In this document: positions 9,262 to 41,730 of the stretch, piece after piece
Position numbering within the stretch: the stretch's first letter is position 1
How the letters are laid out: every line of letters begins with the position of its first letter
Source of the DNA: Candidatus Micrarchaeia archaeon
GTDB taxonomy: Archaea > Micrarchaeota > Micrarchaeia > CABMEP01
Reading direction: 5' to 3'
Length of the DNA: 64,000 nucleotides
Assembly (NCBI GenBank): GCA_038881595.1
Contig: JAVZPM010000002.1
Coordinates: 59,254-123,253 of the forward strand
Translations under genes and position numbers: made by a program
Notes under the pieces: generated by a model
The model's input: only the letters and a program-made list of their open reading frames with translations
Database searches by the model: none
Told to the model about the DNA's origin: nothing

Positions 9262-9376
9262 ACCACATATAAAGCCATCATAATATTTATAGAATTTAAA
9301 ACATTCAATCTTTATATTTCTTTCTATTTTATTATTATTGCTTATTTTATACAATTTAGATTTGAAAGTGATTATT

Positions 9377-18345: not shown

Positions 18346-20920
18346 CTACAGGTGTTAATAGCTCTTCTTTTATTTTCTTTATTTTCATAGTGTCTCTTCC
18401 ATCTCCACCGTATATGAATTGTATTATCTTTCCACTTCCGTCTCTAACACTGTAATCATCTTTTACAACTAAGTCCTGAAGTGCATTAATCATTCTTCTT
18501 TGCATGTATCCTGATCTTGCAGTTCTTATTGCAGTGTTAACTATAGATTCTCTTGCAGACATGGATTGGAAGAAGTACTCAATTGGATTAAGACCATCTA
18601 TGAAATTGGATCTAATAAATCCTCGAGCTACAGCACTTAAATCCTTTGGTTTGAAGTGAGAGAGCGTTCTATATCTATACCCTCTATGTAATCTTTTTTC
18701 TCTTACTACTTGCTGTGCGATTGCTCCAGACATCTGAGTAACGTTTGTCATAGAACCTCTTGCTCCGATCTTTGCTATTATAATCGCCTTATTTTCCTGA
18801 CCTAAGTCCTCTTCTAATACTTTACTTATATCGTTTCTAATTTTTCCAAGAGTATCAACTGATTTACTCTCTAAGGTTTCTTTAAGGCTCTTTCCAGGTT
18901 CTCTTTCAAGAGTTTTATTCTTATATTGCATTATGTATACATTTACTTGCTTTTCTGCATTTTCAACAATTTCTTTGATCTTTTTCTTTCCTTCTTCAGA
19001 TATAGTATAATCCTTCAAACTTACAGTCATTCCCTTTATAGTTATAATTTCAGCTGCAATTCTTCCGATAGCATCTATGAATTTTCTTGCTTCTTCATTT
19101 CCATAATTTAGGGTTATTGCTTCTACAATCGCATTTAACGATTTCTTTTCAAAGTATCCACTTATTACTTTTCCATCTTTTATTTCAACAATGCTTTTAT
19201 CACTTCCTTTCTTTCCAATTTTAGATTCAACTCTAAGATTCAATCCCTTTGGCAAAATTTGAGAGAGTATCAATTTTCCACTATATCTATCTTTTACATC
19301 TGGTTTAGGAAGTTCATATATTCCTGCCATAGCTAAAAGGTCTGCTGCTTGACTTTTTGTAAAGGTTGTTTCATCCAGCGATAAGAGATAGGTTCCAGTT
19401 ATACGATCTTGTGTTGGTCCGATTATTGCATGTCCATGACGTGGTGAAATGATTTGTTTCTCTACTAGCATTAATGTTTCGGCCTCTGCTCTTGCCTCTT
19501 CTTTCTGAGGAACATGTATATTCATTTCATCTCCATCGAAATCAGCATTGTATGGAGTTGTAACAGATGGCGGAACTCTGAATGTTTTTCCAGGTAATAT
19601 CTTTACTCTGTGGGCCATTATAGACATTCTGTGGAGTGATGGATAACGATTGAATAATACTATATCTCCATCCATGAGTTGTCTTTCAACAGTCCATCCA
19701 GCAGCAATTTCCTTTATTAATTCTTCTTTATTAGCATCTGTAACCTTTCTTCTTCTTCCGTTTGGAGAGGTTACATAAATAGCTCTTGGTTTTTCGTTTG
19801 AATTTATCATTTTCTTGCATTCTTCAAGGTTCCAGTCAGTAACTTTTACAGGTACAGTTAATTCATCAGCTATCTGTTGTGGCACTCCTACTTCATTTAT
19901 AGATATACATCCATCTGGAGATACTACAGTTCTTGCACTGAAGTTTACTCTCTTTCCAGAAAGGTTATATCTGAATCTTCCCTCCTTCCCTTTGAGACGT
20001 TGTGCCAATGTTTTTAATGGCATTCCTGATCTGTGTGTTGCAGGAGGTATGTTAGGACTTTCATTATTGAAATAAGTAGTAACATGGTATTGTAAGAGTT
20101 CCCATAAATCTTCTATGATAAGTTGTGGCGCTCCTGCGTTTATATTAGATTCCAATCTCTGATTTATTCTCAAAACTTCTACAAGTTTATGAGTAAGGTT
20201 GTCTTCGCTTCTTTCACCGCTTTCAAGAGTTATAGAAGGTCTCACATTGACAGGTGGGACAGGTAAAACAGTGAGAACTGCCCATTCGGGTCTGCTGTAT
20301 TCTGGATCAAAGCCAAGTTCTCTTAAGTCGTCATCTGAAATCTTTGCAAGCCTATCTCTTACCTCTGTAGGAAGCATTAATCTGTCATCTTCATAGAAGT
20401 TGGTTGGTCTTTCAAACTTTATTTCTTTTTGTTCAGTTTGACAGTGAGGACATTTTTTAACTTTCTTAGTTCTTGCAAGAAATGTTGCAATCATTTCATC
20501 TCTTGTCATTAAGCTACTTTTTATTTCATCTATTTCCTCCTTTGCAAGTAGTACCTTTCCACATGAATTACAAGTTGACCTTAGAAACATATATATCATT
20601 GGAGCAAATTCTGGATGTATCACAGGCCTTATCAGTTCTATTGAACCAAAGTGACCAGGGCAAGTTCTGACTGTTCCTCCACATGTCTTGCATCTTAAAC
20701 CAGGATCTATAACACCCATTCTTAAGTCTGCAAACCCTCCTTCGATAGGATACCCATCATCATTATATGTATCAGGTACAAAAAGTTTTACTGCAGACAT
20801 TTTTCTAATCATCTCTGGAGAGAAAAGAGTGAATTTTATCTTACTTATGTATTTTTCTAAAATTTCATTTTCATCCAATGTAACCACGATACCACCATTA
20901 ATGTTATAAAAACTATTCAT
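18326..20920 (-). CDS. rpoA1: DNA-directed RNA polymerase subunit A'
   Basis: 864 aa with Zn-binding Cys clusters and the NADFDGDEMN catalytic motif. Confidence 0.95.
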   Translation of the reverse strand: MNSFYNINGGIVVTLDENEILEKYISKIKFTLFSPEMIRKMSAVKLFVPDTYNDDGYPIEGGFADLRMGVIDPGLRCKTCGGTVRTCPGHFGSIELIRPVIHPEFAPMIYMFLRSTCNSCGKVLLAKEEIDEIKSSLMTRDEMIATFLARTKKVKKCPHCQTEQKEIKFERPTNFYEDDRLMLPTEVRDRLAKISDDDLRELGFDPEYSRPEWAVLTVLPVPPVNVRPSITLESGERSEDNLTHKLVEVLRINQRLESNINAGAPQLIIEDLWELLQYHVTTYFNNESPNIPPATHRSGMPLKTLAQRLKGKEGRFRYNLSGKRVNFSARTVVSPDGCISINEVGVPQQIADELTVPVKVTDWNLEECKKMINSNEKPRAIYVTSPNGRRRKVTDANKEELIKEIAAGWTVERQLMDGDIVLFNRYPSLHRMSIMAHRVKILPGKTFRVPPSVTTPYNADFDGDEMNIHVPQKEEARAEAETLMLVEKQIISPRHGHAIIGPTQDRITGTYLLSLDETTFTKSQAADLLAMAGIYELPKPDVKDRYSGKLILSQILPKGLNLRVESKIGKKGSDKSIVEIKDGKVISGYFEKKSLNAIVEAITLNYGNEEARKFIDAIGRIAAEIITIKGMTVSLKDYTISEEGKKKIKEIVENAEKQVNVYIMQYKNKTLEREPGKSLKETLESKSVDTLGKIRNDISKVLEEDLGQENKAIIIAKIGARGSMTNVTQMSGAIAQQVVREKRLHRGYRYRTLSHFKPKDLSAVARGFIRSNFIDGLNPIEYFFQSMSARESIVNTAIRTARSGYMQRRMINALQDLVVKDDYSVRDGSGKIIQFIYGGDGRDTMKIKKIKEELLTPVGVPEKE

Positions 20921-22751
20921 CTGTCTTATTGCTTGTAATCATTCTCGGGAATATTCCAAGTGATTTTATTTCATCAATTAGGAGTTTGAATGCATAAGAC
21001 ATTTCTACTTGTGAGAAGTTTGTAGAATCGCAGATAGGACAGATTGGTTTGTTCTTTAGATAGTCATAATATGCAAATGATCCACAATCATTGCAGATTA
21101 TTTGGACTGTTTTATCAGATTCATCCATTAAACGCTCTTTTAGTAGCATTGTTGCTCCATATCCTATAATACAGTCTCTTTCCATTTCACCTAATCTAAG
21201 ACCACCTTCTCTTGATCTTCCTTCTGTTGGTTGGTGGGTCAAAAGTTGTACTGGACCTCTGCTTCTTGCATGTATTTTGTTAGAGACAAGATGCTGTAGT
21301 CTTTGATAGTAGATTACACCTATGAATATTTCTGCTTCAATTCTTTCTCCTGTAACACCATCATAAAGAACTTCATAACCATCAGATTCAAATCCATATT
21401 TCTTTAAAGTTTCTTTGGCCTCCTCCAAATTCGCTGGTGTGAAAGTAGTTCCATCAACACGTTTTCCTTCGAAACAAGCAGCCTTTCCTAAGAGTGTTTC
21501 AAGAAGATGACCAACTGTCATACGAGAAGGAATTGCATGTGGGTTAATAATCAAATCAGGTACGATACCGTCTTTTGTAAATGGCATACTCTCCTGAGGC
21601 ACAAGTAACCCTATAACTCCTTTTTGTCCATGTCTAGATGCAACTTTATCACCATTTTCTGGTATTTTAGTTTCTCTTACTCTAACTTTTACCATTTTGT
21701 TTCCAGATGGACTTTGAGTAATAAGAACAGAGTCAACAATTCCTTTTTCTTCTGCCTTAAGGGTAACCGAACTTTCTTTCTTTTTCTCTTCAGCAATTCC
21801 AAATGCGCTTACTTCTTCAAGGAATCTTGGAGGAGAGGTTTTTCCTATTAACACATCTCTTCCTCCTACTTCTACCCCTGGTGAGATTAATCCGTCCTCA
21901 TCTAAATACTTATATGCTGTCTCTCCTCTATATCCGTTAACTGTAGGAGCAGGAATTTCAAATCTATCCTTTTGTCCTCCTGGATATCTTCTTTCCTCTG
22001 TTGAATATGTTTTAAACATTTCAACTCTAAGTAATCCTCTATCTACAGCAGATTTGTTAACAACAACCGCATCTTCCATGTTGAATCCTCTATAACTCAT
22101 TACTGCAACAACCAAATTATTTCCTCCGATTCTTTTATCAGTTCCAAGTATTCTTTGAGGTCTAGTTGTTACAATTGGAGTTTGAGGATAAAACATTACA
22201 TATGCCTTTGTATCATATCTTAATGAATAATTGGAAGCAAATAACCCAAGTGCCTGTTTAGCCATAGAGCAAGCCATGGTAGTTCTTGGTGATGAATTGT
22301 ATTCTTGCATTGGCAGTTGAGATGTGACAAAACTGAGTATACCTACAGGATCAATTTCAAGATGTGTATGCTCTGGTGTTATGTCTTCTTCTCTAACTGC
22401 TATGTAAGAAAGAGTATCTTCCTCTCCTGGATCCAAATATTCTATTATACCGTTTCTTATTAAATCCTTCCATTCGATTTCGTTGTTTTTTATTTTTGCT
22501 TTGATTTCTGGGGTTAGTTTTGATTTTCCATTTTCTACTATTATTAAAGGTCTTCTGCTTCTGCCTCCATCGCTGTTTATGTAGACTTCTTTAAGCTTCG
22601 GATAAAATTCTACATTAACCTCGTGATTTATTTCTCCATTTCTTCTTTTTCTAATTATTTCACGTACAAGCTCTTCACCATTTGGATGAGAACCAACAAT
22701 TTTACCATTAAGATATACTATGAATTCATCATTTTTCTTTGCCACGTTCAC
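20913..22751 (-). CDS. rpoB1: DNA-directed RNA polymerase subunit B' (C-terminal half of split RpoB)
   Basis: Rpb2 C-terminal domains including GEMERDC and a C-terminal Cys4 Zn ribbon. Confidence 0.95.
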   Translation of the reverse strand: MNVAKKNDEFIVYLNGKIVGSHPNGEELVREIIRKRRNGEINHEVNVEFYPKLKEVYINSDGGRSRRPLIIVENGKSKLTPEIKAKIKNNEIEWKDLIRNGIIEYLDPGEEDTLSYIAVREEDITPEHTHLEIDPVGILSFVTSQLPMQEYNSSPRTTMACSMAKQALGLFASNYSLRYDTKAYVMFYPQTPIVTTRPQRILGTDKRIGGNNLVVAVMSYRGFNMEDAVVVNKSAVDRGLLRVEMFKTYSTEERRYPGGQKDRFEIPAPTVNGYRGETAYKYLDEDGLISPGVEVGGRDVLIGKTSPPRFLEEVSAFGIAEEKKKESSVTLKAEEKGIVDSVLITQSPSGNKMVKVRVRETKIPENGDKVASRHGQKGVIGLLVPQESMPFTKDGIVPDLIINPHAIPSRMTVGHLLETLLGKAACFEGKRVDGTTFTPANLEEAKETLKKYGFESDGYEVLYDGVTGERIEAEIFIGVIYYQRLQHLVSNKIHARSRGPVQLLTHQPTEGRSREGGLRLGEMERDCIIGYGATMLLKERLMDESDKTVQIICNDCGSFAYYDYLKNKPICPICDSTNFSQVEMSYAFKLLIDEIKSLGIFPRMITSNKTDE

Positions 22752-22798: not shown

Positions 22799-24265
22799 TC
22801 ATTTCATAGCTTTTACTCCAATTTTCTTTAGAATACTTTCCACTTCTTTTTCATCTACTCCAATTGAAATCTCATTTGTTAAGGCCATATTCTTAACTAG
22901 AGAGGCAGATGAGCCTTCAGGAGTTTCGTTTGGACATAATCTTCCAAATTGAGTTCCATGCAGATCTCTTGCTTCAAAGTGAGGATGCACTCTGCTAAGT
23001 GGTGAATTGATTCTTCTTAAATGGGAAACTGTCGCTAGATAAGAGACTCTATCAAGAAGCTGACATACTCCGGTTTGCCCCGCTATCCAGTTTCCAGTAG
23101 CCATCGCATATCTTATTCTATCACTTAAAGAATCAGGTCTAACAAATGTTTGTACATCTTGCAACCTTCTTCCTCTTGCAACAGCTCTTTCTGCTTGGTA
23201 GGCTATATCTCTTACCAAGAACTGGAATGAGTATCTAAATAACTCTTCCATCAAAACTCCACTTAATTTAATTCTTTTATTTCCATAATGATCTTTATCA
23301 TCTGCAGGATATTTCTTGTTTGCTACAAGTGTTGTTCTTTGTGCCATTAATGCAAGGAATTTTGCTTTAAGATGCTTTGCAGCAGGAGTAGTTCCAAAGT
23401 GAGGTAGTAAATAATTGTTTAATAACACTTCTACTCTTTTGTCTCTATATTCTTTGGGTTGTCCAGGAACTGCTTTTTTACCGATCTCATCTATTGCATC
23501 ATCAACAGTCTTTACCTCACCAATTTCTATATTTAAAAGCACATCATTGATTACATGCTTATCATCGTCAAATAATTCAAGTATATCATCATCTTTCTTT
23601 ATTCCAAGAGCACGAAGTACAACCATAAATGGTAGTTTAGGTGGAGCAGCTGGAAATTCAATAGTCCATGTACCATCTTCTGATCTGTTTACCGCACATC
23701 TCATTCTTGCTCCGCCGCTCTGTGAAAATATTTTCGCTGTGATTATCGATCCTTGTTTTTCTTTGGTTACCATAATTCTATTTGCAATCAAATCTTCTAT
23801 TCCGATTAAAACTCTCTCTGTTCCATTTATGATCATATATCCTCCTGGATCCATTGGGTCTTCTCCTGCTTTTATCAGTTCTCCTCTGGACATTCCTTCG
23901 GTATAACATATTTTTGACCTTACCATAGCAGGGACATCTCCGATATAAGCAATTGTGGTTTTTCTTTCAATATCATTTATTATAGGGGTTATTTCCATGT
24001 ATACTCTTCCAGCATAAGTAAGATCTCTTTGCCTAGCTTCCATAGGTAAAATAGGTCTTGTTGCAGAATCAGATTCGATAACAATAGGTTTTTCAACCCA
24101 GGCCCTCCCAAGTTTAAGTTCATAATTCGGAACATTAGGTCTTATTACTCCAACTGAACTTACTATTTTTTGTATCCCTTCTTCTATAAATCTATTATAT
24201 GAGTCAAGATGCTGCTTGACTAATTTATTTTCATTTAAATATTTCTCTAATAGATCCTTTGTCAC
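22799..24265 (-). CDS. rpoB2: DNA-directed RNA polymerase subunit B'' (N-terminal half of split RpoB)
   Basis: Rpb2 N-terminal protrusion/lobe region; immediately upstream of B'. Confidence 0.95.
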   Translation of the reverse strand: MTKDLLEKYLNENKLVKQHLDSYNRFIEEGIQKIVSSVGVIRPNVPNYELKLGRAWVEKPIVIESDSATRPILPMEARQRDLTYAGRVYMEITPIINDIERKTTIAYIGDVPAMVRSKICYTEGMSRGELIKAGEDPMDPGGYMIINGTERVLIGIEDLIANRIMVTKEKQGSIITAKIFSQSGGARMRCAVNRSEDGTWTIEFPAAPPKLPFMVVLRALGIKKDDDILELFDDDKHVINDVLLNIEIGEVKTVDDAIDEIGKKAVPGQPKEYRDKRVEVLLNNYLLPHFGTTPAAKHLKAKFLALMAQRTTLVANKKYPADDKDHYGNKRIKLSGVLMEELFRYSFQFLVRDIAYQAERAVARGRRLQDVQTFVRPDSLSDRIRYAMATGNWIAGQTGVCQLLDRVSYLATVSHLRRINSPLSRVHPHFEARDLHGTQFGRLCPNETPEGSSASLVKNMALTNEISIGVDEKEVESILKKIGVKAMK

Positions 24266-26016: not shown

Positions 26017-28041
26017 TTAGACTTTTAGTTCTTTTCTTAGTTCTTTTATTAACTTCTCTTTTCTCTTACTGTCTTTGATTGCATGTTCAATTACATCTAT
26101 GAGGTTGTTTACAGCTATTATCTCTATTTTCTTTCTTTTTTCTTCATCCAATACGATATCATCTAAATTCTCTTTCGGAACAATTACTGCTTTTAATCCT
26201 GCATCAACAGCAGCTTCAACTTTAGCTGTAACTCCGCCTACTGGAAGAACTTCTCCTCTTACGCTTAATGAACCAGTCATTGCAACATCTTGTCTTATTG
26301 CAACTCCTTCCATTGCGCTTAAGACCGCAAGAGCAACAGAAATAGAGGCGCTATCTCCTTCTACACCTTCGTATGTTTGTAAAAATTGAATATGTATGTC
26401 ATAACCAGTTACATCTTTTTTCATATGTTTCTTTATTATTGCACTTACATTGTCAACTGCTTCTTTTGCAATTTCCCCAAGTTTTCCGGTTGCTATAACC
26501 TTTCCTTCGAATTTAGATGAAGCAGGAGTCACTTCTGCAACTATCGGCATTACCAATCCACTGCTTCCATCACCTATCACCGCTAACCCATTCACTCTTC
26601 CGACTTTCGCACCATGAGTCTCTAAAACACTGTATTCTTTCTTTTGTTCAATCATCATATGTGCAATTTGTTGTTCTATTGTTTTTGCAACTCCTTTTGC
26701 CTTAAGTACATGTGATACGTCAGTCACAGGAGAGTTTTCACTTTTTGCTATATCTCCAGCAGCCCTTATAAGACCACCTAGTTCTCTTAATTTTAATGTA
26801 AGTCTTCTTTTTCTACCAGCTTTTCTTTTTGCCTCTTTGATTATTTCTATAACAGCATCTCTTGTGAAGTGAGGTATTTTTCCGTCCTTCTTTACCTCCT
26901 GTGCAACGAATCTAACTAATTTCTCCCTATTTTCCTTAGTGTCCGGCATAGTGTCATTAAGGTATACTTCATATCCGTATCCTCTTATTCTTGATCTTAA
27001 TGCAGGGTGCATATTTTGAAGATCATTTAAATTTCCTGCTGCAACGAGAACAAAGTCACATGGAACTGGTTCAGTTCTAGTTAAAGCACCACTTGACATC
27101 TCACTTTGACCTGTAATTGGGAATTTCTTTTCCTGCATTGCAGTGAGCAGATCTTGTTGTGATTTTGGATTTAACGTTCCAATTTCATCTATATAAAGAA
27201 CACCCATATCAGCTCTATGAATCGCTCCACTCTCAACTCTGAGATGTGCCGGAGTACCCAAACCCCCTGTTTGTAGTGGATCATGTCGTACGTCTCCAAA
27301 AAGGGCTCCTGCTTTAGCACCAGTAGCTTCGATGAAAGGTGCGGTTCTTCTTCCAGTGTTGTCAACTATAAGCTTTGGTTCATTATATTCTTCCCTTCTG
27401 ATTCCACTTTGAAGTCTTGACGTAAACATCCACATTGCAAGAAAGAACAATCCTCCAAGTACAATAGCAGCAATTATTGAAGAGTATTTCTCAATTTCTG
27501 AAAGTACTGAAAGGTCTACGAATTGAAATATTAGCAAACCGATTATGAGAATGATAAGTAATGTAGTTATCCAAGATATGCCACTTTGTTTTTTTGGCAT
27601 TAGTTTTTGCATCTTGCTTGCAAGTATTATTTTTCTTCCTTGTCCAATTTTTTCCTCTTCAGGCGCATTTTCAGGTGGAAGTCCATTAGGGTAGGTAAGT
27701 ACTGTTTTAATCTTTGGATTATTTTCATCGAATTCATTTGGATATACTAATACATCTCTCAGGTTTTCTGCAGGCATTAATTCAGCCATTCCTTGTGCAA
27801 GCATACTTTTCCCAGTACCTGGAGAACCAAGAAGAAGAACGTTTCTTCTCTGTGCAGCAGCTTTCTTTACTATTTCTACTGCCTTATCCTGTCCTATTAT
27901 TTGATCGATTATTTTTTCAGGTATTTTTATTTCTGCGGTTGTATTAAATTTAGGAATAGTTTTTTCAATATCTTCTAAATCTTCACTTATTTTTCTTGTT
28001 TTTTTATTTTCTTTTTTTAATTTTAAAGTTTTCTCTTTCAT
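26017..28041 (-). CDS. lonB: ATP-dependent Lon protease, archaeal membrane-bound LonB type
   Basis: AAA+ Walker [17 protein letters not shown] insertion within the ATPase domain, C-terminal Lon proteolytic domain. Confidence 0.9.
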
Positions 28042-29950: not shown

Positions 29951-30370
29951 TTAGTCTCTAAGCATTATAATTTGTGCGCCCAACCTTTTTAAATATTGCT
30001 TGAGTTTTTTATCGTACGTTACTATAGATAGTTTTTGTTTCTTTGCTATTTTTATGAACCATCTATCTAAAGGTGGGTCTGCTTTCTCTACGTTTATTTT
30101 CTTGTCAGTTTCCCATTTTTTGATTATTTTTAGTGCTATAGTTGCATTTCTTTTTTCAGACAAACTACTCTTCTTTGAGTTGATAATTTTTTCTAATTCA
30201 TCATATATTCCAGAAGGAATTACTACAATTGATTTGATCCCTCTAATTTTTTTATGGAGTGTTTCTAAAATGTCAATCTTTTTTTGTATAGAATAAATAA
30301 TCGCATTGGTATCAAACGTCAATATTTGTTTTTCTTCTTTCCTTTCTATCTCTTTATTTTCAAATTTCAT
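29951..30370 (-). CDS. PIN-domain protein (putative ribonuclease)
   Basis: ILTFDTNAII (N-terminal acidic motif) and a later acidic residue in VTYD; about 140 aa. Confidence 0.45.
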   Translation of the reverse strand: MKFENKEIERKEEKQILTFDTNAIIYSIQKKIDILETLHKKIRGIKSIVVIPSGIYDELEKIINSKKSSLSEKRNATIALKIIKKWETDKKINVEKADPPLDRWFIKIAKKQKLSIVTYDKKLKQYLKRLGAQIIMLRD

Positions 30371-30374
30371 TTAA

Positions 30375-32978
30375 TCACTGTTTCGTTTTTATTAGACGTT
30401 TCTTAGCTTCGAATATTATTGTAATAATTACAATAAGAGGAATAATGTACATCCATTGCATCATAGTAAGAGGTTTAAGTTCAAATAAAGATGACAAAAA
30501 TGGTATGTAAAATGCAGCAAATAGAATTAGAAATGTTAAACAAATAGAGAGAATAGTATCTGCAGAAATATGTTTCCATGATTCAAGTAAGCTATCTTTT
30601 ATTGATATTGAGTTTATAGATATTGTTAATACAGTTATAGATAATATTGCTATTGCTAATGTTCTACTATATCCTTCAAATATTGGGATTAATGTTAAAT
30701 ATCCAAAGTATATTGATACAACTAGTGCAATTAAAAGCATCGCAAGGTATTCATTCGTTTCAGGAAATCTTTTTGATGTTTTAATTGCCAATGATTTTTC
30801 ATATAATCTTTCCTTCGAGAAATTTGTTGCAATTGCAACATCTGCAATTAAATTTATAAGCAGTATCTGGGTTGCAGTCATCATGTCTCCTGTAAATACT
30901 ATTGCGCTTATCATAACAGTAAAAAATATTGCCATATCTGATGCTGATAAAGCATAAAAAGTTCTTTCTATATTTCTTCTCATATCCCTGGATTCCTCTA
31001 TTAGATCTGCTATACTTTCATATCTATCGTTCTTTATTATTCCATCGGCATTATTCTTTATTATTCCTGGAGCACTCTCAACTGCCAGAGACACATTCGT
31101 GTATAATAATGGACTGTAGTCTGTTCCTATGGATTCGATGTATGTGACATGATGCCCTTCTTTTTTAAGCGTATCTAATATCATAGCCTCATATTCTTCT
31201 GTAGATTCCGAGAAAACAACGGATTCAAGTATTCTTTTTGTTCTTTCTTCAGCTCTCATATATTTTAGTTCTTCACATATAACTGCTTTGTCTTTTTCAG
31301 TCATTATTCCAATTTCTCTTGCAAAGCTTACTGCCTCTCCACTTTTTGCTTTAGTTATTATAATTGGCTTTATTCCTGCTTCTTTAAGTTCTTGTACTGT
31401 TTTTTTGACTTCTTGCTTTGGTGGATCATATATACCTAATAAAGAAAGGAATGTAAAGTATTTCGGCTCTTCTTTTTTCCAGGCAAATGCAATTGCATAT
31501 GGTGTTTGTCCATTTGCAGTCATTTTGATTTCTTGATTTTCTATTTCTTCTTTAATTTTTTCATCAATCTTTAGGAATTTTCCATTCGAGTAGAGTGATT
31601 TGCATCTTTCTTTTACTTTTTCAGAAGGTCCAAACATAACAAATGCAATTCTGTTTCTTTTCTTTATCTTAACAATTTTTACATCTTCTGTTTCTTTACT
31701 TTCAAGCAACACCCATTCTCCTCTTATATTTGTTATTGGAATTCTATTTTTCATTGCCATTACTACTAGTGCACCTTCGATTGGATCGCCGTCAAGATAG
31801 GGTATATTATCTTTGTACTCTAGTGTTGCTTCTGTAGCAGCTGCAGCCATTTCTGTCATCATATCTATAGTTGCGTAATTTTTTGTTCCTTTGAAAATAC
31901 CAAGAACATCCCATCCATCTCCAGTTACATATACTTCTTTTCTATCTATCCATATTCTTCTTACTGTAGGTTCGTTTCTTGTCAGTGATTTTAACATTTC
32001 TGTAACTACAACTGTAGTCCTGCCAATTTTATCTGCCGCAGCTTCTCTTCTAAGCACAATGAATTTAGACATCCTTTCTATCGTCGATGCATATATATAA
32101 GTTGCAACACTAAATATAGTGTCAGGGATTGCAGCTACTGCAGCGGCAGCAGCGATTACGATTGCATTAAATAATGGCATTCCGTCTGCAACTAGTTGAA
32201 ATACGATAATAAGTGAAGCGAGATACACCACATTTCCAAAAGAATCAGTGGCTCTCTTTACTCTGCTTATCGAATCGTTTTTCTTTGGATCTGTTGATAA
32301 AATGTTTTTAATTCCAAAAACAGTATAGTATTTCGTATTCTTTCCTGTAGCTGTGACTGTTATTGTACATTCTCCCTTTTTAATAAAAGTTCCGGCATAA
32401 ACAGACGACGGATCTGATTTATATGGCCTAAAGGTTTTTTCTACTTCCATTTCTGGTACTTTTTCTACAATTCCTCTTTGGAATATGTTTTCATCAACCA
32501 AACAGTTTTTAGCTTTAATAACTATTCCATCTGCAGGAACAAGCATTCCTTCTTCAAGTATTAATATGTCACCTGGAACGATCTCTTCTATATCAAGTCT
32601 AATTATCTTTCCATTTCTGTATGCTTTTACATACCCATAAAATTCTTTAAGATTTTTTATTATTTTTTCTTCACTTTCTCTATTTCTTATCCAATTTATG
32701 GAAACTGTTAGCAAGATTATCGAGATGATTAATAGACTATGAGCAATATTCACTGTAGCAAGAAATATAGCTGCAAGAATTAGAATAATAATAGGATAGC
32801 TAAATTGTGAAAAAAGTAGTTCCAATTCACCTGTTCTCGCATATTGATAAATAACGTTTTTTCCATTTCTCTTGAGTCGTTCATTCGCTTCTTCTGTTGT
32901 TAATCCAATAGGTAGATTTTTAATTTCATTACTAATTTTTTCTTTTTTTTCATTTATTTCTTTTTTTCTCTCCGCCAT
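30375..32978 (-). CDS. P-type ATPase homolog with divergent catalytic motifs
   Basis: Cation-ATPase N-terminus (GLTTEEANERLKRNGKN), PGD..PADG actuator segment, DPPK and a polytopic C-terminus; DKTGT, TGES, TGD and GDGxND positions are altered. Confidence 0.7.
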   Translation of the reverse strand: MAERKKEINEKKEKISNEIKNLPIGLTTEEANERLKRNGKNVIYQYARTGELELLFSQFSYPIIILILAAIFLATVNIAHSLLIISIILLTVSINWIRNRESEEKIIKNLKEFYGYVKAYRNGKIIRLDIEEIVPGDILILEEGMLVPADGIVIKAKNCLVDENIFQRGIVEKVPEMEVEKTFRPYKSDPSSVYAGTFIKKGECTITVTATGKNTKYYTVFGIKNILSTDPKKNDSISRVKRATDSFGNVVYLASLIIVFQLVADGMPLFNAIVIAAAAAVAAIPDTIFSVATYIYASTIERMSKFIVLRREAAADKIGRTTVVVTEMLKSLTRNEPTVRRIWIDRKEVYVTGDGWDVLGIFKGTKNYATIDMMTEMAAAATEATLEYKDNIPYLDGDPIEGALVVMAMKNRIPITNIRGEWVLLESKETEDVKIVKIKKRNRIAFVMFGPSEKVKERCKSLYSNGKFLKIDEKIKEEIENQEIKMTANGQTPYAIAFAWKKEEPKYFTFLSLLGIYDPPKQEVKKTVQELKEAGIKPIIITKAKSGEAVSFAREIGIMTEKDKAVICEELKYMRAEERTKRILESVVFSESTEEYEAMILDTLKKEGHHVTYIESIGTDYSPLLYTNVSLAVESAPGIIKNNADGIIKNDRYESIADLIEESRDMRRNIERTFYALSASDMAIFFTVMISAIVFTGDMMTATQILLINLIADVAIATNFSKERLYEKSLAIKTSKRFPETNEYLAMLLIALVVSIYFGYLTLIPIFEGYSRTLAIAILSITVLTISINSISIKDSLLESWKHISADTILSICLTFLILFAAFYIPFLSSLFELKPLTMMQWMYIIPLIVIITIIFEAKKRLIKTKQ

Positions 32979-33003
32979 ATAGATCAGCTAGTAAAAGCAT
33001 TTA

Positions 33004-34227
33004 TTACTTTACAATTATTCTTTCTCCTACGCTGCTTATTCTCTCAAGTTTTATAGGTATTTTTGTTCCTACAGGAGTCTGTGCTATCGCAGTTCCCGCT
33101 TTTTTATCTATTCCTATTACTTTTCCGATATATGCACCTATCTCTGTTATTATCTCCTTTCCTTCTAATCTTATCTTCGCTGCGACCCTTATCTTTAACG
33201 TTCTAGCAAATTCTGTTGCAAGTAATGTTACGATTATAGAGAGAATTATGGCGATTAAAAATTCATAGAACCACGCCTCTCCTACTATCCAAGAGAGAGC
33301 AAGATATGATAAGAAAGAGACAACTATCCCATTAAATGAATATAATCCACTATCTATAAGTTCAAACAAACTTCCTTTTGGATAAAGTTCAATCGCCCTT
33401 CCAATCATTATTAAAATTATTATAAATACTGCAAAGGGCCATAGTATAGGTCGTAGTCCAAATGATAAAGATTCAAAAAAGCTATAGCCATTTGAGCTTG
33501 CATTAATAAATTCATTTACACCTATTGAGATAGATATCAAAGCTAATGCGAATATAGGCACATAAACCACAAGTGTAGTTCTTGTAGAGGATGAAAACAA
33601 ATTTCTAACTGTATTTATAATAAAATCTTCTATACCAAATCCTTTAAGTAAGAGATATAAACCAACAATACCCACTATAGGTCTCCATCCATATCCAAGC
33701 ATATCGCTAATAAGAAAAGAAATCAATATTAAAGCAGGAACTCCGAAGAAAAGTTTTGCATAATATGGCTCTTTTAGTTTGCTTAAAAGAGTAACGTATG
33801 TTTTTTCAAGCTCTTTTGCTTGCTTCATAACTACGGTTTTCTTTGAGTCAAGTTTTACTCTTGAAGAGATTAAAGGAAGCAGTTCTTCGTCATCAGCTCC
33901 ATCAGTTACAAAAATACATGATGTTGCATGAAACTGTTGAAGAATAGACTCTAATTGTGTAACTATTTTCTTATCTGCATGATACCCTAATCGACTATCT
34001 CCAGTAATAGTTACAACCTCTGCTTTTTTAGTTTTTATTATTTCATCATAGATCTTTACTGCCTGAAACATTGCATTTGCATCTGTATCTTCTGGATCGT
34101 TTAGAAGAAGATTAGTTGCAGCATGTATATTTGCTTGTCTTCCTATTACTGGCCCAGTTATTCGTGCTTTTTTACCTAAATCATCATCACGATCTACACA
34201 TAATATTAGTATATTTTCTTTCGTCAT
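33004..34227 (-). CDS. Archaeal membrane protein, DUF373-like
   Basis: Soluble N-terminal domain (ILILCVDRDDDLGKK...) followed by multiple TM helices; family assignment from memory of the N-terminal pattern. Confidence 0.4.
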   Translation of the reverse strand: MTKENILILCVDRDDDLGKKARITGPVIGRQANIHAATNLLLNDPEDTDANAMFQAVKIYDEIIKTKKAEVVTITGDSRLGYHADKKIVTQLESILQQFHATSCIFVTDGADDEELLPLISSRVKLDSKKTVVMKQAKELEKTYVTLLSKLKEPYYAKLFFGVPALILISFLISDMLGYGWRPIVGIVGLYLLLKGFGIEDFIINTVRNLFSSSTRTTLVVYVPIFALALISISIGVNEFINASSNGYSFFESLSFGLRPILWPFAVFIIILIMIGRAIELYPKGSLFELIDSGLYSFNGIVVSFLSYLALSWIVGEAWFYEFLIAIILSIIVTLLATEFARTLKIRVAAKIRLEGKEIITEIGAYIGKVIGIDKKAGTAIAQTPVGTKIPIKLERISSVGERIIVK

Positions 34228-34369
34228 TCAAGCACCATTGAGTTTTTTTTCTATGAATAAATGTTATTAAATATTTATAAATTCTATTATTGTATATAAT
34301 ATAATCTTACGTAATTATAAATCTAAGACCTATTTTAATTGATTAATAATTTAAGAGTTAATTTTAAAG

Positions 34370-35086
34370 TTGGTAGTTATGGAAAAAGATAGAGAAGTTA
34401 TAGCTGTTCCTGGAGATATACTTGGAACAGAAGAGGAATTTCTTCCTGGAGAGGGAACATATACAGATAAAGATGGAAATATTCGTGCATTAAACGCAGG
34501 AATTGTTGAAATCAGCGATGATAGGCGAATATCTGTTTTTTCAGATAGAGAACCTGAAAAACTTAAACCAGGTGATGTAGTTTATGGTAGAGTAGAAGAA
34601 ATGTTTGAGTCAGTCGCATTCCTTACTATCGAGCATCCAAATTCTTCAAGTATAGAACGAATTGATAGGATGTCAGCAGTTATTCCAATTTCAGAGATAA
34701 AAGAAGGATATGTTAAATCAATACGAGATGCAATTCATGTTGGTGATATCATAATTGGTGCAGTTAAAGAAGTTACTCCATTAAGAATAATTGTTACTCT
34801 TAAACCAAAAGGAATGGGCGTAGTAATGGCGTATTGTAGTTACGATCGAAAGCCAATGTTATTGAAAGGAAGGTCTCTTATTTGTAGTAAATGTGGACAA
34901 AAAGAGGAACGTCTTATTGCAGATAGCTATGGAAAATTTGAATACATTGAATCTGCACAAATAATTCCAGAAAGAAAAGATAGATTTCAGAAATTAAGAT
35001 TAGTAAAAGGAAGGTTTTCTGGAAGAAAGAAATATAGATATTTTCAGGAAAAATTTCAATTTAAAAAAAGAAGATCAAGATTCTAA
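34370..35086 (+). CDS. csl4: Exosome complex RNA-binding protein Csl4
   Basis: N-terminal domain, S1 domain and C-terminal Zn ribbon (CSYD...CSKCG); conserved neighbourhood with rpoL. Confidence 0.8.
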   Translation: MVVMEKDREVIAVPGDILGTEEEFLPGEGTYTDKDGNIRALNAGIVEISDDRRISVFSDREPEKLKPGDVVYGRVEEMFESVAFLTIEHPNSSSIERIDRMSAVIPISEIKEGYVKSIRDAIHVGDIIIGAVKEVTPLRIIVTLKPKGMGVVMAYCSYDRKPMLLKGRSLICSKCGQKEERLIADSYGKFEYIESAQIIPERKDRFQKLRLVKGRFSGRKKYRYFQEKFQFKKRRSRF

Positions 35087-39510: not shown

Positions 39511-40605
39511 TTACCACATAACTTCTTCTATCATTTCATATGCCTTGTGTTCCTGTTTCTGTGGTTCAAGGTTTCCAAGCAATGATGTGGAGGTAACTCC
39601 GGTCATGATTGCAGTGACAACAACCTTGTCTCCAAGTTCTGGCATGAGTCTTGCTCCCCAGATGACATTTGCATTGTTGTCAAATGCTGCAGTTATTCCT
39701 TCACCAATCTTGGTTGCCTCACCCAATGTAAGATTTGGACCACCTGCTATGTGGATAAGCGCTCCCTTTGCACCTTCATAGCTCACATCAAGCAATGGGT
39801 GTTCTAATGTGCTCTTTATTGCATCCTCAACCTTGTTTGTTCCCTTTCCTTCTCCAACAGAGAGCATTGCAACTCCACCGTTGCCCATGATTGCTCTTAT
39901 GTCGGCAAAGTCAATGTTGATAAGGGATGGGGTCATTATAGTATCAGATATTCCCTTTATTGCTCTTGCAAGTATTTCATCTGCTACATTGAATGCCTCG
40001 TTCATAGGTAAGTTTGGCACGTACTGAACTAATCTGTTGTTGTCAATTACAACTACAGTGTCACATGTTTTTCTTAATTCTTCCAATCCCCATCTTGCCT
40101 TTTCTGTTCTTGCTCTCTCAAGAGAAAATGGGTATGTAACCATACCAACTACTATTGCACCCTCTCTCTTTGCAACCTCTGCAACAACTGGTGCAGCACC
40201 TGTACCTGTACCTCCTCCCATACCTGCTGTAATGAATACTAAATCTGCTCCACTTAATGCCTCTGCAAGCTTGTCTTTTGATGCCTCAGCTGCCTTTCTT
40301 GCAACCTCCGGATATCCTCCAGCACCAAGACCTCTTGTTATGGACTGACCAATTAAGAGTCTCTTGTGAGCCTCTGTTATCTTCAGGTGGTTGACATCAG
40401 TGTTAATTGCTATCGTGTCTGCGGTTTTTATTCCAGATCTCATTATTCTAGTGATGCTGTTGCATCCTCCTCCACCTACTCCTACTACAGTAATTCTGAT
40501 CTTGTCTGATCCAAGGTAATCCTTCTCCGGTGCCTTGGTCGCCTTAACTGTGGTTCCAGATGTAAACGAACTTAGGAAACTTTCCATTTCAACACCCTGC
40601 CTCAA
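39511..40605 (-). CDS. ftsZ: Cell division GTPase FtsZ (paralog A)
   Basis: Tubulin/FtsZ signature [24 protein letters not shown]. Confidence 0.95.
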
Positions 40606-40668: not shown

Positions 40669-41730
40669 TTAACCAATTATTTCAATGTCACCATATATTG
40701 GTGATTCTACTTTTTGCTCTTCAAGTGGTACTCCAACAACACTTGCACCCTTTACTCCAGTTACGATTGCAACTATTTCTATCTTGCCATCATATCCTGG
40801 AATGAGTCTTGCACCCCACTTGACGCTTGCCGTTGAATCCATTCTTTCAGTTATTATTTCTCCTGCCTTGATTGCATCTCCTAATGTCAGGTCGTTTCCA
40901 CCAGAGATGTGGATCAAAGCACCTTTTGCTCCTTCGAAGTCAACATCAAGCAATCTGTTCTTTAGAACTCCTTCTGCAGCTGCCTGAACCTTGTTTGTTC
41001 CTCTTCCTTCACCTACCGCAATGAAACCAACATCACCTTGAGACATAATTGCTCTTACATCTGCAAAGTCAATGTTGATTAATGAAGGTTGTGTTATCGT
41101 CCAGACAAGTCCACCAATTGCTCTTGCAAGTATCTCATCTGCAACTCCAAAAGCCTCATTCATTGGGAGATTTGGAACCAATTGAACCAGTCTGTTGTTG
41201 TCAATTATAATAACACTGTCTGCATGTTTTCTAAGCATCTGAATTCCTTCGTCTGCTTTGCTTCTTCTTGCCTTTTCAAGTGCGAATGGGTAGGTAACCA
41301 TAGCAACTACTATTGCACCTTGTTCTTTTGCAATTTCTGCAACAACAGGAGCACTTCCTGTACCTGTACCTCCTCCCATACCTGCACAGATAAAAACTAA
41401 TTGTGCATCTTTTAGTGCTCTTTCGATTAAAGGCTTGTCAATTTCTGCAGCCTTTCTCCCTACATCAACATATCCTCCAGCACCAAGACCTCTTGTTATA
41501 GATTTACCTATAAGAATCTTTTGAATCCTTTCATCTAATGTCAATAAGTGCTGATTATCTGTATTAATTGCAATCAGATCAGCACCCTTAACACCATATC
41601 TAAGAAGTCTCTGAAGGGTGTTGTTTCCTCCACCACCGCAGCCCACGACTGCGATCTTAATTCTTTCAACTGGACCAAGATTTGACTCAGCCTCAGTGTG
41701 TCCTGTAACAGATTTGATTAAGCTTTCCAT
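40669..41730 (-). CDS. ftsZ: Cell division GTPase FtsZ (paralog B)
   Basis: [25 protein letters not shown]; second FtsZ directly upstream of the first. Confidence 0.95.

What the first reader, a model, noticed from the sequence alone, without database searches (positions are those of the whole stretch)
30375..34227. P-type ATPase homolog with degenerate catalytic motifs, next to a DUF373-like membrane protein
The 867-aa protein has P-type ATPase architecture (Cation_ATPase_N-like GLTTEEANERLKRNGKN, PGD..PADG, DPPK, many TM helices). The hallmark motifs are altered: DKTGTLT reads DKIGRTT, TGES reads FQRG, MITGD reads IITKAK, and GDGVND reads GTDYSP. The phospho-acceptor Asp is retained, but nucleotide-binding and dephosphorylation residues look compromised, suggesting a non-pumping or regulatory derivative. 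It is co-directional with a DUF373-like membrane protein separated by 25 bp.
Basis: seen in the sequence. Interest (0 to 1): 0.6.

Follow-up and report, generated by a model that had tools for sequence, protein, structure and literature searches.

The report
Catalytically dead calcium-pump relative in Micrarchaeota
This archaeal gene encodes a full-length relative of calcium pumps that has lost every residue needed to burn ATP, including the aspartate that is normally phosphorylated, yet evolution keeps it carefully intact, so an ion-pump fold has apparently taken on a new, ATP-independent job.

Summary
The ORFs are real: an 867-aa P-type-ATPase-like protein (30375..32978, minus strand) lies 25 bp downstream of a bona fide DUF373 protein (33004..34227). 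The host is a DPANN archaeon (Candidatus Micrarchaeota). 'DKIGRTT' aligns with the upstream VETLGxT motif. The true DKTGTLT position reads TEMLKSLT, so the phospho-acceptor Asp is replaced by Glu327. In 20 clade members versus 26 live pumps, D351 is Glu in 20/20. TGES, F487, K515, R560, D627, K684, D703 and N706 are all lost. The clade is tiny (about 4-6 clusters among 1.84 billion representatives) and monophyletic (100/100) on a very long stem. It is under strong purifying selection (dN/dS about 0.1), strongest in the 'dead' P and N domains. AlphaFold gives a complete P2A fold (TM 0.83 to SPCA1). Membrane-site residues N709, D713 and a new D681 are invariant. Nine of 80 Micrarchaeota DUF373 loci have an ATPase immediately downstream, and all nine are the dead type. 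Verdict: a conserved pseudo-pump and a new variant of a known kind. Its actual activity is unknown; a cation-binding, ATP-independent membrane protein is the best guess.

The parts
30375..32978 (-). 867-aa P2A-type P-type-ATPase homologue with all catalytic motifs lost (pseudo-pump)
   Evidence: ORF. Pfam. NCBIfam scores are all below cut-off. Best PDB sequence hit is LMCA1 at 2.5e-51. AF2 pLDDT 84. Foldseek TM 0.83 to hSPCA1 8iwp. dN/dS about 0.1.
31980..32009 (-). True equivalent of ICxDKTGTLT: VVTEMLKSLT. Glu327 replaces the phosphorylated Asp
   Evidence: Alignments. Glu in 20/20 dead members versus Asp in 26/26 live pumps. Coordinates verified.
32013..32033 (-). It is actually the equivalent of the upstream (V/I)ETLGxT motif (SERCA E340 region)
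   Evidence: It lies in helix 314-318 of the model.
32460..32483 (-). A-domain loop FQRGIVEK replacing TGES. The dephosphorylation Glu is replaced by Gly169
   Evidence: E183 is Gly in 17/20 dead members; TGES is intact in 26/26 live pumps.
31620..31634 (-). N-domain FGPSE replacing KGAPE. The ATP-binding Lys is replaced by Phe449
   Evidence: K515 is hydrophobic in 19/20. F487 and R560 are lost in 20/20. The R489/K492 segment is deleted.
31341..31358 (-). P-domain ITKAKS replacing ITGDHK. The TGD Gly and Asp are lost; Thr542 is kept
31188..31196 (-). EYE: charge reversal at the K684 position (Glu597)
   Evidence: Glu in 18/20 dead members, Lys in 26/26 live pumps.
31104..31139 (-). IESIGTDYSPLL replacing TGDGVNDAPALK. 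D703 becomes Ser616, G702 becomes Glu615, N706 is lost, and Asp620 is kept at the D707 position
   Evidence: The register is ambiguous by +/-1 between HMMER and MAFFT, but D703 and N706 are lost in either register.
31416..31427 (-). DPPK, the retained hinge motif (DPPR)
32112..32129 (-). M4 IPDTIF in place of IPEGLP. Pro285 is invariant. The E309 position is variable (E/D/Q/N/Y). The second Pro is lost
30831..30941 (-). M5-M6 membrane cation-site residues: Ser680-Asp681 (Asp invariant at the N768 position), Asn709 (N796) and Asp713 (D800) invariant, T799 replaced by Ala
   Evidence: invariant columns.
33004..34227 (-). DUF373 membrane protein: N-terminal acidic alpha/beta domain, helical membrane bundle and C-terminal PRC barrel. 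It lies 25 bp upstream on the same strand
29951..30370 (-). PIN_9 domain protein 4 bp downstream. It belongs to the PIN-Rpo7-Spt4 block rather than to the ATPase
   Evidence: Pfam. The block is inverted as a unit in L005 and L007, while DUF373 and the ATPase stay together.

Best explanation
The gene encodes a conserved, catalytically inert paralogue of P2A-type (SERCA/PMR1/LMCA1-like) Ca2+-ATPases, that is, a 'pseudo-pump'.

Shown here:
- It keeps the complete A-P-N-M architecture and ten-helix membrane domain.
- Every residue needed for ATP binding, aspartyl-phosphate formation, Mg2+ coordination and dephosphorylation is replaced in all members.
- The replacements are themselves conserved: Glu at the phospho-site, Glu at K684, Glu-Ser at G702-D703, and Lys/Arg at G354.
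- The family arose once, on a very long branch, and has since been under strong purifying selection, strongest in the P and N domains.

Inferred:
- It cannot run the Post-Albers E1/E2-P cycle and therefore does not pump at the expense of ATP.
- An intramembrane polar constellation at the canonical cation site is invariant (Asp681, Asn709, Asp713, Pro285). The most likely job is therefore an ATP-independent, cation-binding membrane function: a facilitator or channel, or a cation sensor.
- The remodelled headpiece would then act as a regulatory or ligand- or partner-binding module. The former active site is now an acidic cluster (E327, E597, E615, D620) that could bind a divalent cation or mimic a fixed state.
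- It is probably co-transcribed with the upstream DUF373 membrane protein in this lineage.
For: Fold and architecture: Pfam domains; full-length alignment to LMCA1 and SPCA1; AF2 pLDDT 84.2, pTM 0.79; TM 0.83 to hSPCA1 in the E1 state.

Loss of catalysis in all 20 members versus 26 live pumps: D351 is E in 20/20; T353 is hydrophobic in 20/20; E183 is G in 17/20; F487 and R560 are lost in 20/20; K515 is lost in 19/20; D627 is lost in 20/20; K684 is E in 18/20; D703 is S or A in 20/20; N706 is lost in 20/20. PF00702 and TIGR01494 score below their cut-offs.

Functional constraint: intact ORFs across 29-94% identity. dN/dS is 0.09-0.105 overall, 0.04-0.07 in the P domain, 0.07-0.09 in the N domain and 0.12-0.13 in the membrane domain.

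Single origin and accelerated stem: monophyly 100/100, stem 0.85 versus 0.06 substitutions per site.

Membrane site: D681, N709 and D713 are invariant in 20/20.

DUF373 linkage: DUF373 lies directly upstream and co-directional in the window, L001-L005 and L007-L014, and also in the deep branches L013 and L023. All 9 ATPases found next to DUF373 in 80 species loci are the dead type.

Independent evidence that D->E at this site is not tolerated in a working P-type module: it is lethal in the Toxoplasma P4-ATPase-guanylate cyclase (PMC13466520).
Against: - No biochemical data exist, and the proposed cation-binding activity is inference only.
- The M4 gating Glu (E309 position) is not conserved (E9/D5/Q4/N1/Y1). 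The helix-breaking prolines P312 and P803 are lost. The canonical Ca2+ site II geometry is therefore probably not preserved.
- DUF373 occurs in hundreds of Micrarchaeota clusters and in about 70 of 80 species loci without the ATPase, usually next to Csl4-RpoL and a convergent LonB.
- One dead member (P0016, L006) has Sua5 rather than DUF373 upstream. The pairing may therefore be inherited synteny rather than functional coupling.
Confidence: 0.5

Rival explanations
1. Regulatory or hetero-oligomeric partner of a live pump. The dead paralogue pairs with an intact P2A Ca2+-ATPase, as many pseudoenzymes do with their active paralogues, and modulates or stabilises it.
For: In L005 a fully canonical P2A ATPase (LTGES, DKTGTLT, KGAPE, TGD, GDGVND, PEGLP) lies 42 bp downstream of the dead copy on the same strand. 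Live P2A pumps exist in Micrarchaeota. Oligomeric P-type ATPases are known; a dimeric MgtA preprint was listed.
Against: Only 1 of about 10 dead-ATPase loci has a live neighbour. There is none within the 64-kb window. The sampled live Micrarchaeota pumps sit in unrelated contexts and in other assemblies. The L005 pair shares only 26% identity.
Confidence: 0.2
2. Ion-independent structural or scaffolding membrane protein. The pump fold is kept only as a rigid platform, for example to anchor DUF373 or a cell-surface or host-contact apparatus of this symbiotic DPANN archaeon. The membrane polar residues would then be structural.
For: The strongest constraint is on the cytoplasmic P and N domains rather than the membrane domain. 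The E309 position and the M4 and M6 prolines are not conserved. There is a recurrent DUF373 neighbour.
Against: Three buried polar or acidic residues at exactly the canonical cation site are invariant over 29-94% identity, and one of them (D681) is a gain relative to live pumps. No partner has been identified.
Confidence: 0.2
3. It is still an ATP-driven pump with unusual chemistry, for example a Glu acyl-phosphate.
For: A carboxylate is retained at the nucleophile position in every member. GDPxEGAL, DPPK and Thr542 are kept.
Against: All supporting catalytic residues are missing: T353, K684, D703, N706 and TGES, plus F487, K515 and R560 for ATP. D->E at this site inactivates tested P-type ATPases (Toxoplasma P4GC, PMC13466520; SERCA D351 mutagenesis is my own recollection and was not retrieved). 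All P1-P6 subfamilies keep DKTGT (PMC10654040).
Confidence: 0.04
4. A decaying gene remnant with no function.
For: There is wholesale loss of catalytic motifs and a very long stem branch.
Against: Full-length intact ORFs occur in all lineages down to 29% identity. dN/dS is about 0.1. The replacement residues are themselves conserved. The gene is retained in reduced DPANN genomes.
Confidence: 0.02

Closest known systems
P2A-type Ca2+-ATPases (SERCA, SPCA/PMR1, Listeria LMCA1)
   Same: Same domain order and length. Full-length sequence homology (LMCA1 E 2.5e-51; SPCA1 E about 1e-49). Predicted structure superposes on hSPCA1 at TM 0.83. It retains PGD..PADG, GDPxEGAL, DPPK, the M4 Pro, and the M6 Asn and Asp.
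   Different: It lacks the DKTGT Asp (Glu instead), TGES, KGAPE Lys, F487, R560, TGD Asp, K684, D703 and N706. The M4 Glu is variable, and the second M4 Pro and the M6 Pro are lost. Identity to live pumps is only about 22%, whereas live pumps share 40-45% across domains of life. It scores far below every curated equivalog cut-off.
Degenerate flippase modules of alveolate P4-ATPase-guanylate cyclase fusions (P4GC-beta, Cryptosporidium, gregarines, Tetrahymena)
   Same: A P-type ATPase module in which the DKTGT Asp and the A-domain Glu are altered, yet the module is retained. This suggests a non-catalytic role (PMC13466520).
   Different: Those are eukaryotic, belong to subfamily P4, are fused to a cyclase and are only partially degenerate. 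The authors infer weaker constraint on the module. Here the protein is stand-alone, archaeal, P2A-derived and completely degenerate, and the dead domains are the most constrained part.
Transporter-fold proteins repurposed as channels or regulators (CFTR and SUR in the ABC superfamily); own knowledge, as an analogy only
   Same: The concept is the same: a primary-active-transporter fold is kept while the transport cycle is abandoned or altered.
   Different: They belong to a different superfamily, and CFTR and SUR still bind and use nucleotide. No functional data exist for the present family.
DUF373 (PF04123) archaeal membrane proteins
   Same: The upstream gene is a full-length member (E 1e-81, covering 332/335 of the model).
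   Different: Function is unknown. This study adds only a C-terminal PRC barrel, an invariant acidic N-terminal alpha/beta domain, and a phylum-wide divergent arrangement with Csl4-RpoL.

Membership tests
P-type ATPase superfamily | A, P, N and M domain architecture and fold | tested here: met
   PF00690, PF00122 and PF00689 score above cut-off. AF2 model pLDDT 84. TM 0.83 to hSPCA1 and 0.81 to SERCA1a.
P-type ATPase superfamily | DKTGT signature with the phosphorylatable Asp | tested here: not met
   The position reads E-M-L-K-S. It is Glu in 20/20 clade members and Asp in 26/26 live pumps.
P-type ATPase superfamily | A-domain phosphatase motif TGES (catalytic Glu) | tested here: not met
   The loop reads FQRGIVEK. 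E183 is Gly in 17/20.
P-type ATPase superfamily | N-domain nucleotide-binding residues (F487, K515, R560; SERCA numbering) | tested here: not met
   F487 and R560 are lost in 20/20, K515 is lost in 19/20, and the R489/K492 segment is deleted. Only E442 (GDPxEGAL) is kept.
P-type ATPase superfamily | HAD motifs II-IV of the P domain (TGD, K684, GDGxND) | tested here: not met
   T625 is kept, D627 is lost, K684 is Glu in 18/20, D703 is Ser or Ala in 20/20, N706 is lost in 20/20, and D707 is kept in 16/20. PF00702 scores 22.7 against a cut-off of 26.4.
P-type ATPase superfamily | Curated family HMM threshold (TIGR01494 HAD-IC P-type ATPase) | tested here: not met
   55.6 bits against a cut-off of 62.3.
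P-type ATPase superfamily | ATP hydrolysis with an acyl-phosphate intermediate, coupled to transport | not testable with these tools
   This needs purified protein, a [gamma-32P]ATP phosphoenzyme assay and flux assays.
P2A Ca2+-ATPase (SERCA / PMR1 / LMCA1 type) | Equivalog-level sequence score | tested here: not met
   TIGR01116 scores 218 against 703. TIGR01522 scores 206 against 798. These are nevertheless the best-scoring subfamilies.
P2A Ca2+-ATPase (SERCA / PMR1 / LMCA1 type) | Ca2+ site II ligands: M4 PEGL Glu, M6 Asn and Asp | tested here: inconclusive
   The M6 Asn and Asp are invariant. The M4 Glu is variable (E9/D5/Q4/N1/Y1; Asp286 in the window). T799 is Ala. The N768 position is an invariant Asp.
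Pseudoenzyme (operational definition: homologue of an enzyme family that lacks the catalytic residues yet is conserved) | Catalytic residues absent in all members, plus purifying selection | tested here: met
   Motif table. dN/dS about 0.1. Monophyly 100/100.
DUF373 (PF04123), upstream gene | Pfam gathering threshold, full-length match | tested here: met
   275 bits against a cut-off of 28.3, covering profile positions 2-332 of 335.

The most novel reading that the evidence does not exclude
A P-type ATPase fold has been converted into an ATP-independent cation channel, carrier or sensor. The former phosphorylation pocket is rebuilt as a conserved acidic cluster (Glu327, Glu597, Glu615, Asp620 with Lys/Arg330). 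It would act as a cytoplasmic divalent-cation or partner-binding switch that gates the retained intramembrane site (Asp681, Asn709, Asp713). The protein would operate together with the co-transcribed DUF373 protein. This would be the first stand-alone, non-enzymatic member of the P-type ATPase superfamily with a defined function.
Probability: 0.2. Interest if true: 0.8.

Novelty: new variant of a known kind. Interest (0 to 1): 0.58.

Why it matters
The DKTGT aspartate is treated as the defining, universal feature of P-type ATPases (PMC10654040). This is a stand-alone prokaryotic family that has discarded it, together with every other catalytic residue, yet is kept under strong selection in reduced DPANN genomes.

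- It shows that the pump fold can be repurposed without the Post-Albers cycle.
- It offers a natural 'locked' P-type scaffold for asking which conformational or ion-binding properties survive without phosphorylation.
- It has a practical annotation consequence. These genes are currently labelled 'Ca2+-transporting ATPase' in public records, so metabolic reconstructions of Micrarchaeota that count them as Ca2+ pumps are probably wrong.
- It gives the uncharacterised DUF373 family its first recurrent, lineage-specific partner.

Tried and rejected
2. Recent tandem duplication of the live neighbour in L005 is rejected. The pair shares only 26% identity, and the dead clade does not group with live Micrarchaeota pumps.
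3. I looked for a second, live P-type ATPase in the window and found none.
4. I tested co-occurrence of live and dead copies in the same assemblies. Three look-ups of live Micrarchaeota pumps gave unrelated contigs and assemblies, so this is inconclusive and MAG incompleteness prevents a verdict.
5. DUF373 as an obligate partner is rejected. About 70 of 80 species have DUF373 without the ATPase, and one dead member lacks DUF373 upstream.
7. The PIN_9 gene 4 bp downstream as part of the unit is rejected. It travels with Rpo7-Spt4 and is inverted away in L005 and L007.
8. Literature searches for a described dead P-type ATPase family (pseudoenzyme, FUPA, Micrarchaeota, catalytically inactive) found nothing relevant. 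A search for 'D351E' gave only unrelated hits.
9. Geometry of the acidic cluster in the model could not be done, because model coordinates are not exposed to scripts.
10. dN/dS against more distant orthologues was unusable because synonymous sites are saturated.


Full report
**1. What is in the sequence**

Two co-directional ORFs lie on the minus strand. One is 867 aa (30375..32978) and the other is 407 aa (33004..34227), and 25 bp separate them. A 139-aa PIN_9 ORF follows 4 bp downstream of the larger one.

The neighbourhood is archaeal information-processing genes: LonB, NFACT-R, Spt4, Rpo7, Csl4, RpoL and Endo_dU. GC content is about 31%. Near-identical proteins in public data are annotated as Candidatus Micrarchaeia/Micrarchaeota MAGs, that is, DPANN archaea.

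The 407-aa protein is an unambiguous DUF373 member (PF04123, E 1e-81). The 867-aa protein matches Cation_ATPase_N, E1-E2_ATPase and Cation_ATPase_C above threshold. Its HAD/Hydrolase P-domain match falls below the Pfam cut-off (22.7 versus 26.4 bits). Every NCBIfam P-type model scores below its cut-off, including the generic TIGR01494 (55.6 versus 62.3). The best subfamily models are SERCA-type and PMR1-type, at 218 and 206 bits against cut-offs of 703 and 798.

**2. The motif register**

This is a register error.

- In the phmmer alignment to Listeria LMCA1, 'AADKIGRTTVVVTEMLKSLTRNEPTV' pairs with '[27 protein letters not shown]'.
- The same register is given by MAFFT with canonical archaeal and bacterial pumps, by L-INS-i with 26 live pumps, and by BLASTP of orthologue P0015 against a live pump.
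- In the AlphaFold model Glu327 sits at the C-terminal end of beta-strand 323-326, the position of HAD motif I. Asp316 lies within helix 314-318.

The phosphorylated Asp is therefore replaced by Glu327. 'DKIGRTT' is the counterpart of the conserved upstream (V/I)ETLGxT motif.

**3. Extent and conservation of the degeneration**

A word-indexed search of 5.8 billion proteins found a tight clade (P0001-P0016, 94-36% identity). Identity then drops sharply to 29% or less for canonical Ca2+-ATPases. An exhaustive profile search of 1.84 billion 50%-identity representatives added only three deeper full-length members (P0121, P0122, P0123) and two fragments. From about 410 bits downward all hits carry DKTGT. 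The family is therefore very small, about 4-6 clusters at 50% identity.

The table compares 20 dead members with 26 live pumps, in SERCA1a numbering assigned by motif.

| Position | Dead clade (20) | Live pumps (26) |
|---|---|---|
| D351 | Glu 20/20 | Asp 26/26 |
| K352 | lost 16/20 | Lys 26/26 |
| T353 | hydrophobic 20/20 | Thr 26/26 |
| G354 | Lys/Arg 18/20 | Gly 26/26 |
| E183 (TGES) | Gly 17/20 | Glu 26/26 |
| F487, R560 | lost 20/20 | Phe, Arg 26/26 |
| K515 | hydrophobic 19/20 | Lys 25/26 |
| D627 | Glu or Ala (lost) | Asp 26/26 |
| K684 | Glu 18/20 | Lys 26/26 |
| G702 | Glu 19/20 | Gly 26/26 |
| D703 | Ser/Ala 20/20 | Asp 26/26 |
| N706 | lost 20/20 | Asn 26/26 |
| D707 | kept 16/20 | Asp 26/26 |

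The R489/K492 segment is also deleted. Retained features are PGD..PADG, GDPxEGAL, DPPK, Thr625 and the M4 Pro.

In the membrane domain, the N796 and D800 equivalents (Asn709, Asp713) are invariant. The N768 position is an invariant Asp (Asp681), which is a gain relative to live pumps. T799 is Ala in 20/20. The E309 position is variable (E9/D5/Q4/N1/Y1), and the second M4 proline and the M6 proline are lost.

**4. Is it a functioning gene?**

Yes.

- Intact full-length ORFs persist over 29-94% identity.
- Nei-Gojobori dN/dS against three close orthologues with unsaturated dS (0.24-0.28) is 0.09-0.105 overall. It is lowest in the 'dead' P domain (0.04-0.07) and N domain (0.07-0.09). It is higher in the A domain (about 0.13) and the membrane domain (0.12-0.13).
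- The replacement residues are themselves conserved.
- In a neighbour-joining tree the dead clade is monophyletic in 100/100 bootstraps. Its stem is 0.85 substitutions per site, against 0.06 for the live Micrarchaeota clade. Dead-live identity is about 22%, while live pumps from archaea and bacteria share 40-45%.

This is the pattern of a single loss of catalysis, followed by rapid remodelling and then stabilising selection on a new function.

**5. Structure**

AlphaFold2 with a 21-sequence alignment gives a confident model (pLDDT 84.2, pTM 0.79). It has the complete P2-ATPase fold. The best global matches are human SPCA1 in the Ca-E1 state (TM 0.83) and SERCA1a E1.Mg2+ (TM 0.81). The predicted pose is not evidence for a physiological state.

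**6. Genomic context**

DUF373 lies directly upstream on the same strand at every level of ATPase identity where the upstream region is visible:

- the window;
- L001/L002 (94% ATPase identity);
- L003/L004 (63%);
- L007 (60%, with the downstream PIN-Rpo7-Spt4 block inverted);
- L005 (47%, also rearranged downstream).

I then fetched 80 DUF373 loci from different Micrarchaeota species and scanned them by tblastn. About 60 have Csl4-RpoL(-Endo_dU) divergently upstream. Only 9 have a P-type ATPase downstream, and all 9 are the dead type. These include the deep branches in L013 ('ICSEKVKTLT') and L023 ('VCIEKIKNLT').

Where the ATPase is absent, the commonest downstream gene is a convergent LonB (21/72), and the remaining neighbours are diverse. 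One dead member (P0016, L006) has a Sua5 gene upstream instead.

DUF373 therefore does not need the ATPase. The ATPase is almost always found behind DUF373 with a short spacer, mostly 22-32 bp. This fits co-transcription but could also be inherited synteny.

In L005 a fully canonical P2A pump follows the dead one but shares only 26% identity with it. No other locus shows this arrangement. Live Micrarchaeota pumps sampled elsewhere sit in unrelated contexts.

**7. DUF373 itself**

**8. Mechanism**

*Shown:* the protein has the pump fold, lacks all catalytic residues and is under selection.

*Inferred:*
- It cannot bind ATP productively, form or hydrolyse an aspartyl phosphate, or run the E1/E2-P cycle. 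D->E at this site is lethal in the Toxoplasma P4-ATPase-cyclase (PMC13466520). All P1-P6 subfamilies keep DKTGT (PMC10654040).
- Three polar or acidic residues at the canonical intramembrane site are invariant. I therefore favour an ATP-independent cation-binding function (facilitator, channel or sensor).
- The strongly constrained headpiece would act as a regulatory module. The former active site has become a conserved acidic cluster with a nearby Lys/Arg. This could bind a divalent cation, or could satisfy itself through salt bridges and fix one conformation. That part is speculation.

*Rivals:*
- a partner or regulator of a live pump, supported only by L005;
- an ion-independent scaffold;
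- an unusual but active ATPase, which is very unlikely;
- a decaying gene, which is effectively refuted.

**9. Comparison with known systems and novelty**

By homology this is a P2A-type ATPase derivative. By the defining functional features of P-type ATPases it fails membership: DKTGT, TGES, the nucleotide site, HAD motifs II-IV and the curated thresholds are all not met.

The nearest documented precedent for a degenerate P-type module is the flippase part of some alveolate P4-ATPase-guanylate cyclases. Those modules are eukaryotic, fused, only partly degenerate and thought to be under weaker constraint.

I found no description of a stand-alone or prokaryotic catalytically dead P-type ATPase family in the searchable literature. 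Public records label these proteins 'Ca2+-transporting ATPase' or 'cation transporting ATPase C-terminal domain-containing protein'.

I rate it a new variant of a known kind. Interest is moderate to high for P-type ATPase specialists and for DPANN genome annotation. It is limited by the absence of any functional read-out and by the tiny, uncultured host range.

Noticed in passing
L005:10692-13349 (+), JGI metagenome 3300031999 contig Ga0315274_10000434: A fully canonical P2A Ca2+-ATPase (LTGES, DKTGTLT, KGAPE, TGD, GDGVND, PEGLP) lies 42 bp downstream of the dead paralogue. This is the only dead/live tandem seen, and the two share only 26% identity.
   Followed up: partly
window 33004-35086, and L008-L087: DUF373 is divergently paired with Csl4-RpoL(-Endo_dU) in about 60 of 80 Micrarchaeota species loci. 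This is a phylum-wide arrangement that links an uncharacterised membrane protein to exosome and RNA-polymerase subunit genes.
   Followed up: partly
window 33004-34227 (-), residues 5-135 and 355-407: The DUF373 N-terminal alpha/beta domain carries invariant acidic motifs (D12, D14, D16; D44, D49, N51; T73, T75, G76; D109, G110, D113). They are suggestive of a metal or phosphoryl site, but no solved structural relative was found. The C-terminal domain is a PRC barrel.
   Followed up: partly
L003:14098-16659 and L006:10104-11048+ (LonB), compared with window 26017-28041: LonB carries an intein (PF14890) in some related Micrarchaeota (853 aa and more than 1100 aa). It is intein-free (674 aa) in the window.
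   Followed up: no
window 29951-30370 (-): A PIN_9 domain gene starts 4 bp after the ATPase stop. Across relatives it travels with Rpo7 and Spt4 as a block, which is inverted in L005 and L007.
   Followed up: partly
window 20913-22751 and 22799-24265 (-): Two adjacent large ORFs (612 aa and 488 aa). By synteny with L001 they correspond to a split RNA polymerase subunit B (Rpb2 domains 1-3 and 4-7). This was not scanned directly in the window.
   Followed up: no
window 39511-40605 and 40669-41730 (-): Two tandem ORFs of about 355-365 aa. They sit at the position where related loci (L001, L003) carry two tandem FtsZ/tubulin paralogues. This was not verified in the window.
   Followed up: no
window 5297-6715 (+): A 472-aa ORF with no Pfam match at E <= 1e-5.
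   Followed up: no
window 9338-12031 (+) and 55151-56731 (+): A pyruvate phosphate dikinase/PEP-utilising enzyme (897 aa) and a Na+/Pi cotransporter fused to PhoU. Both are ordinary metabolic and transport genes. No other P-type ATPase is present in the 64 kb.
   Followed up: yes
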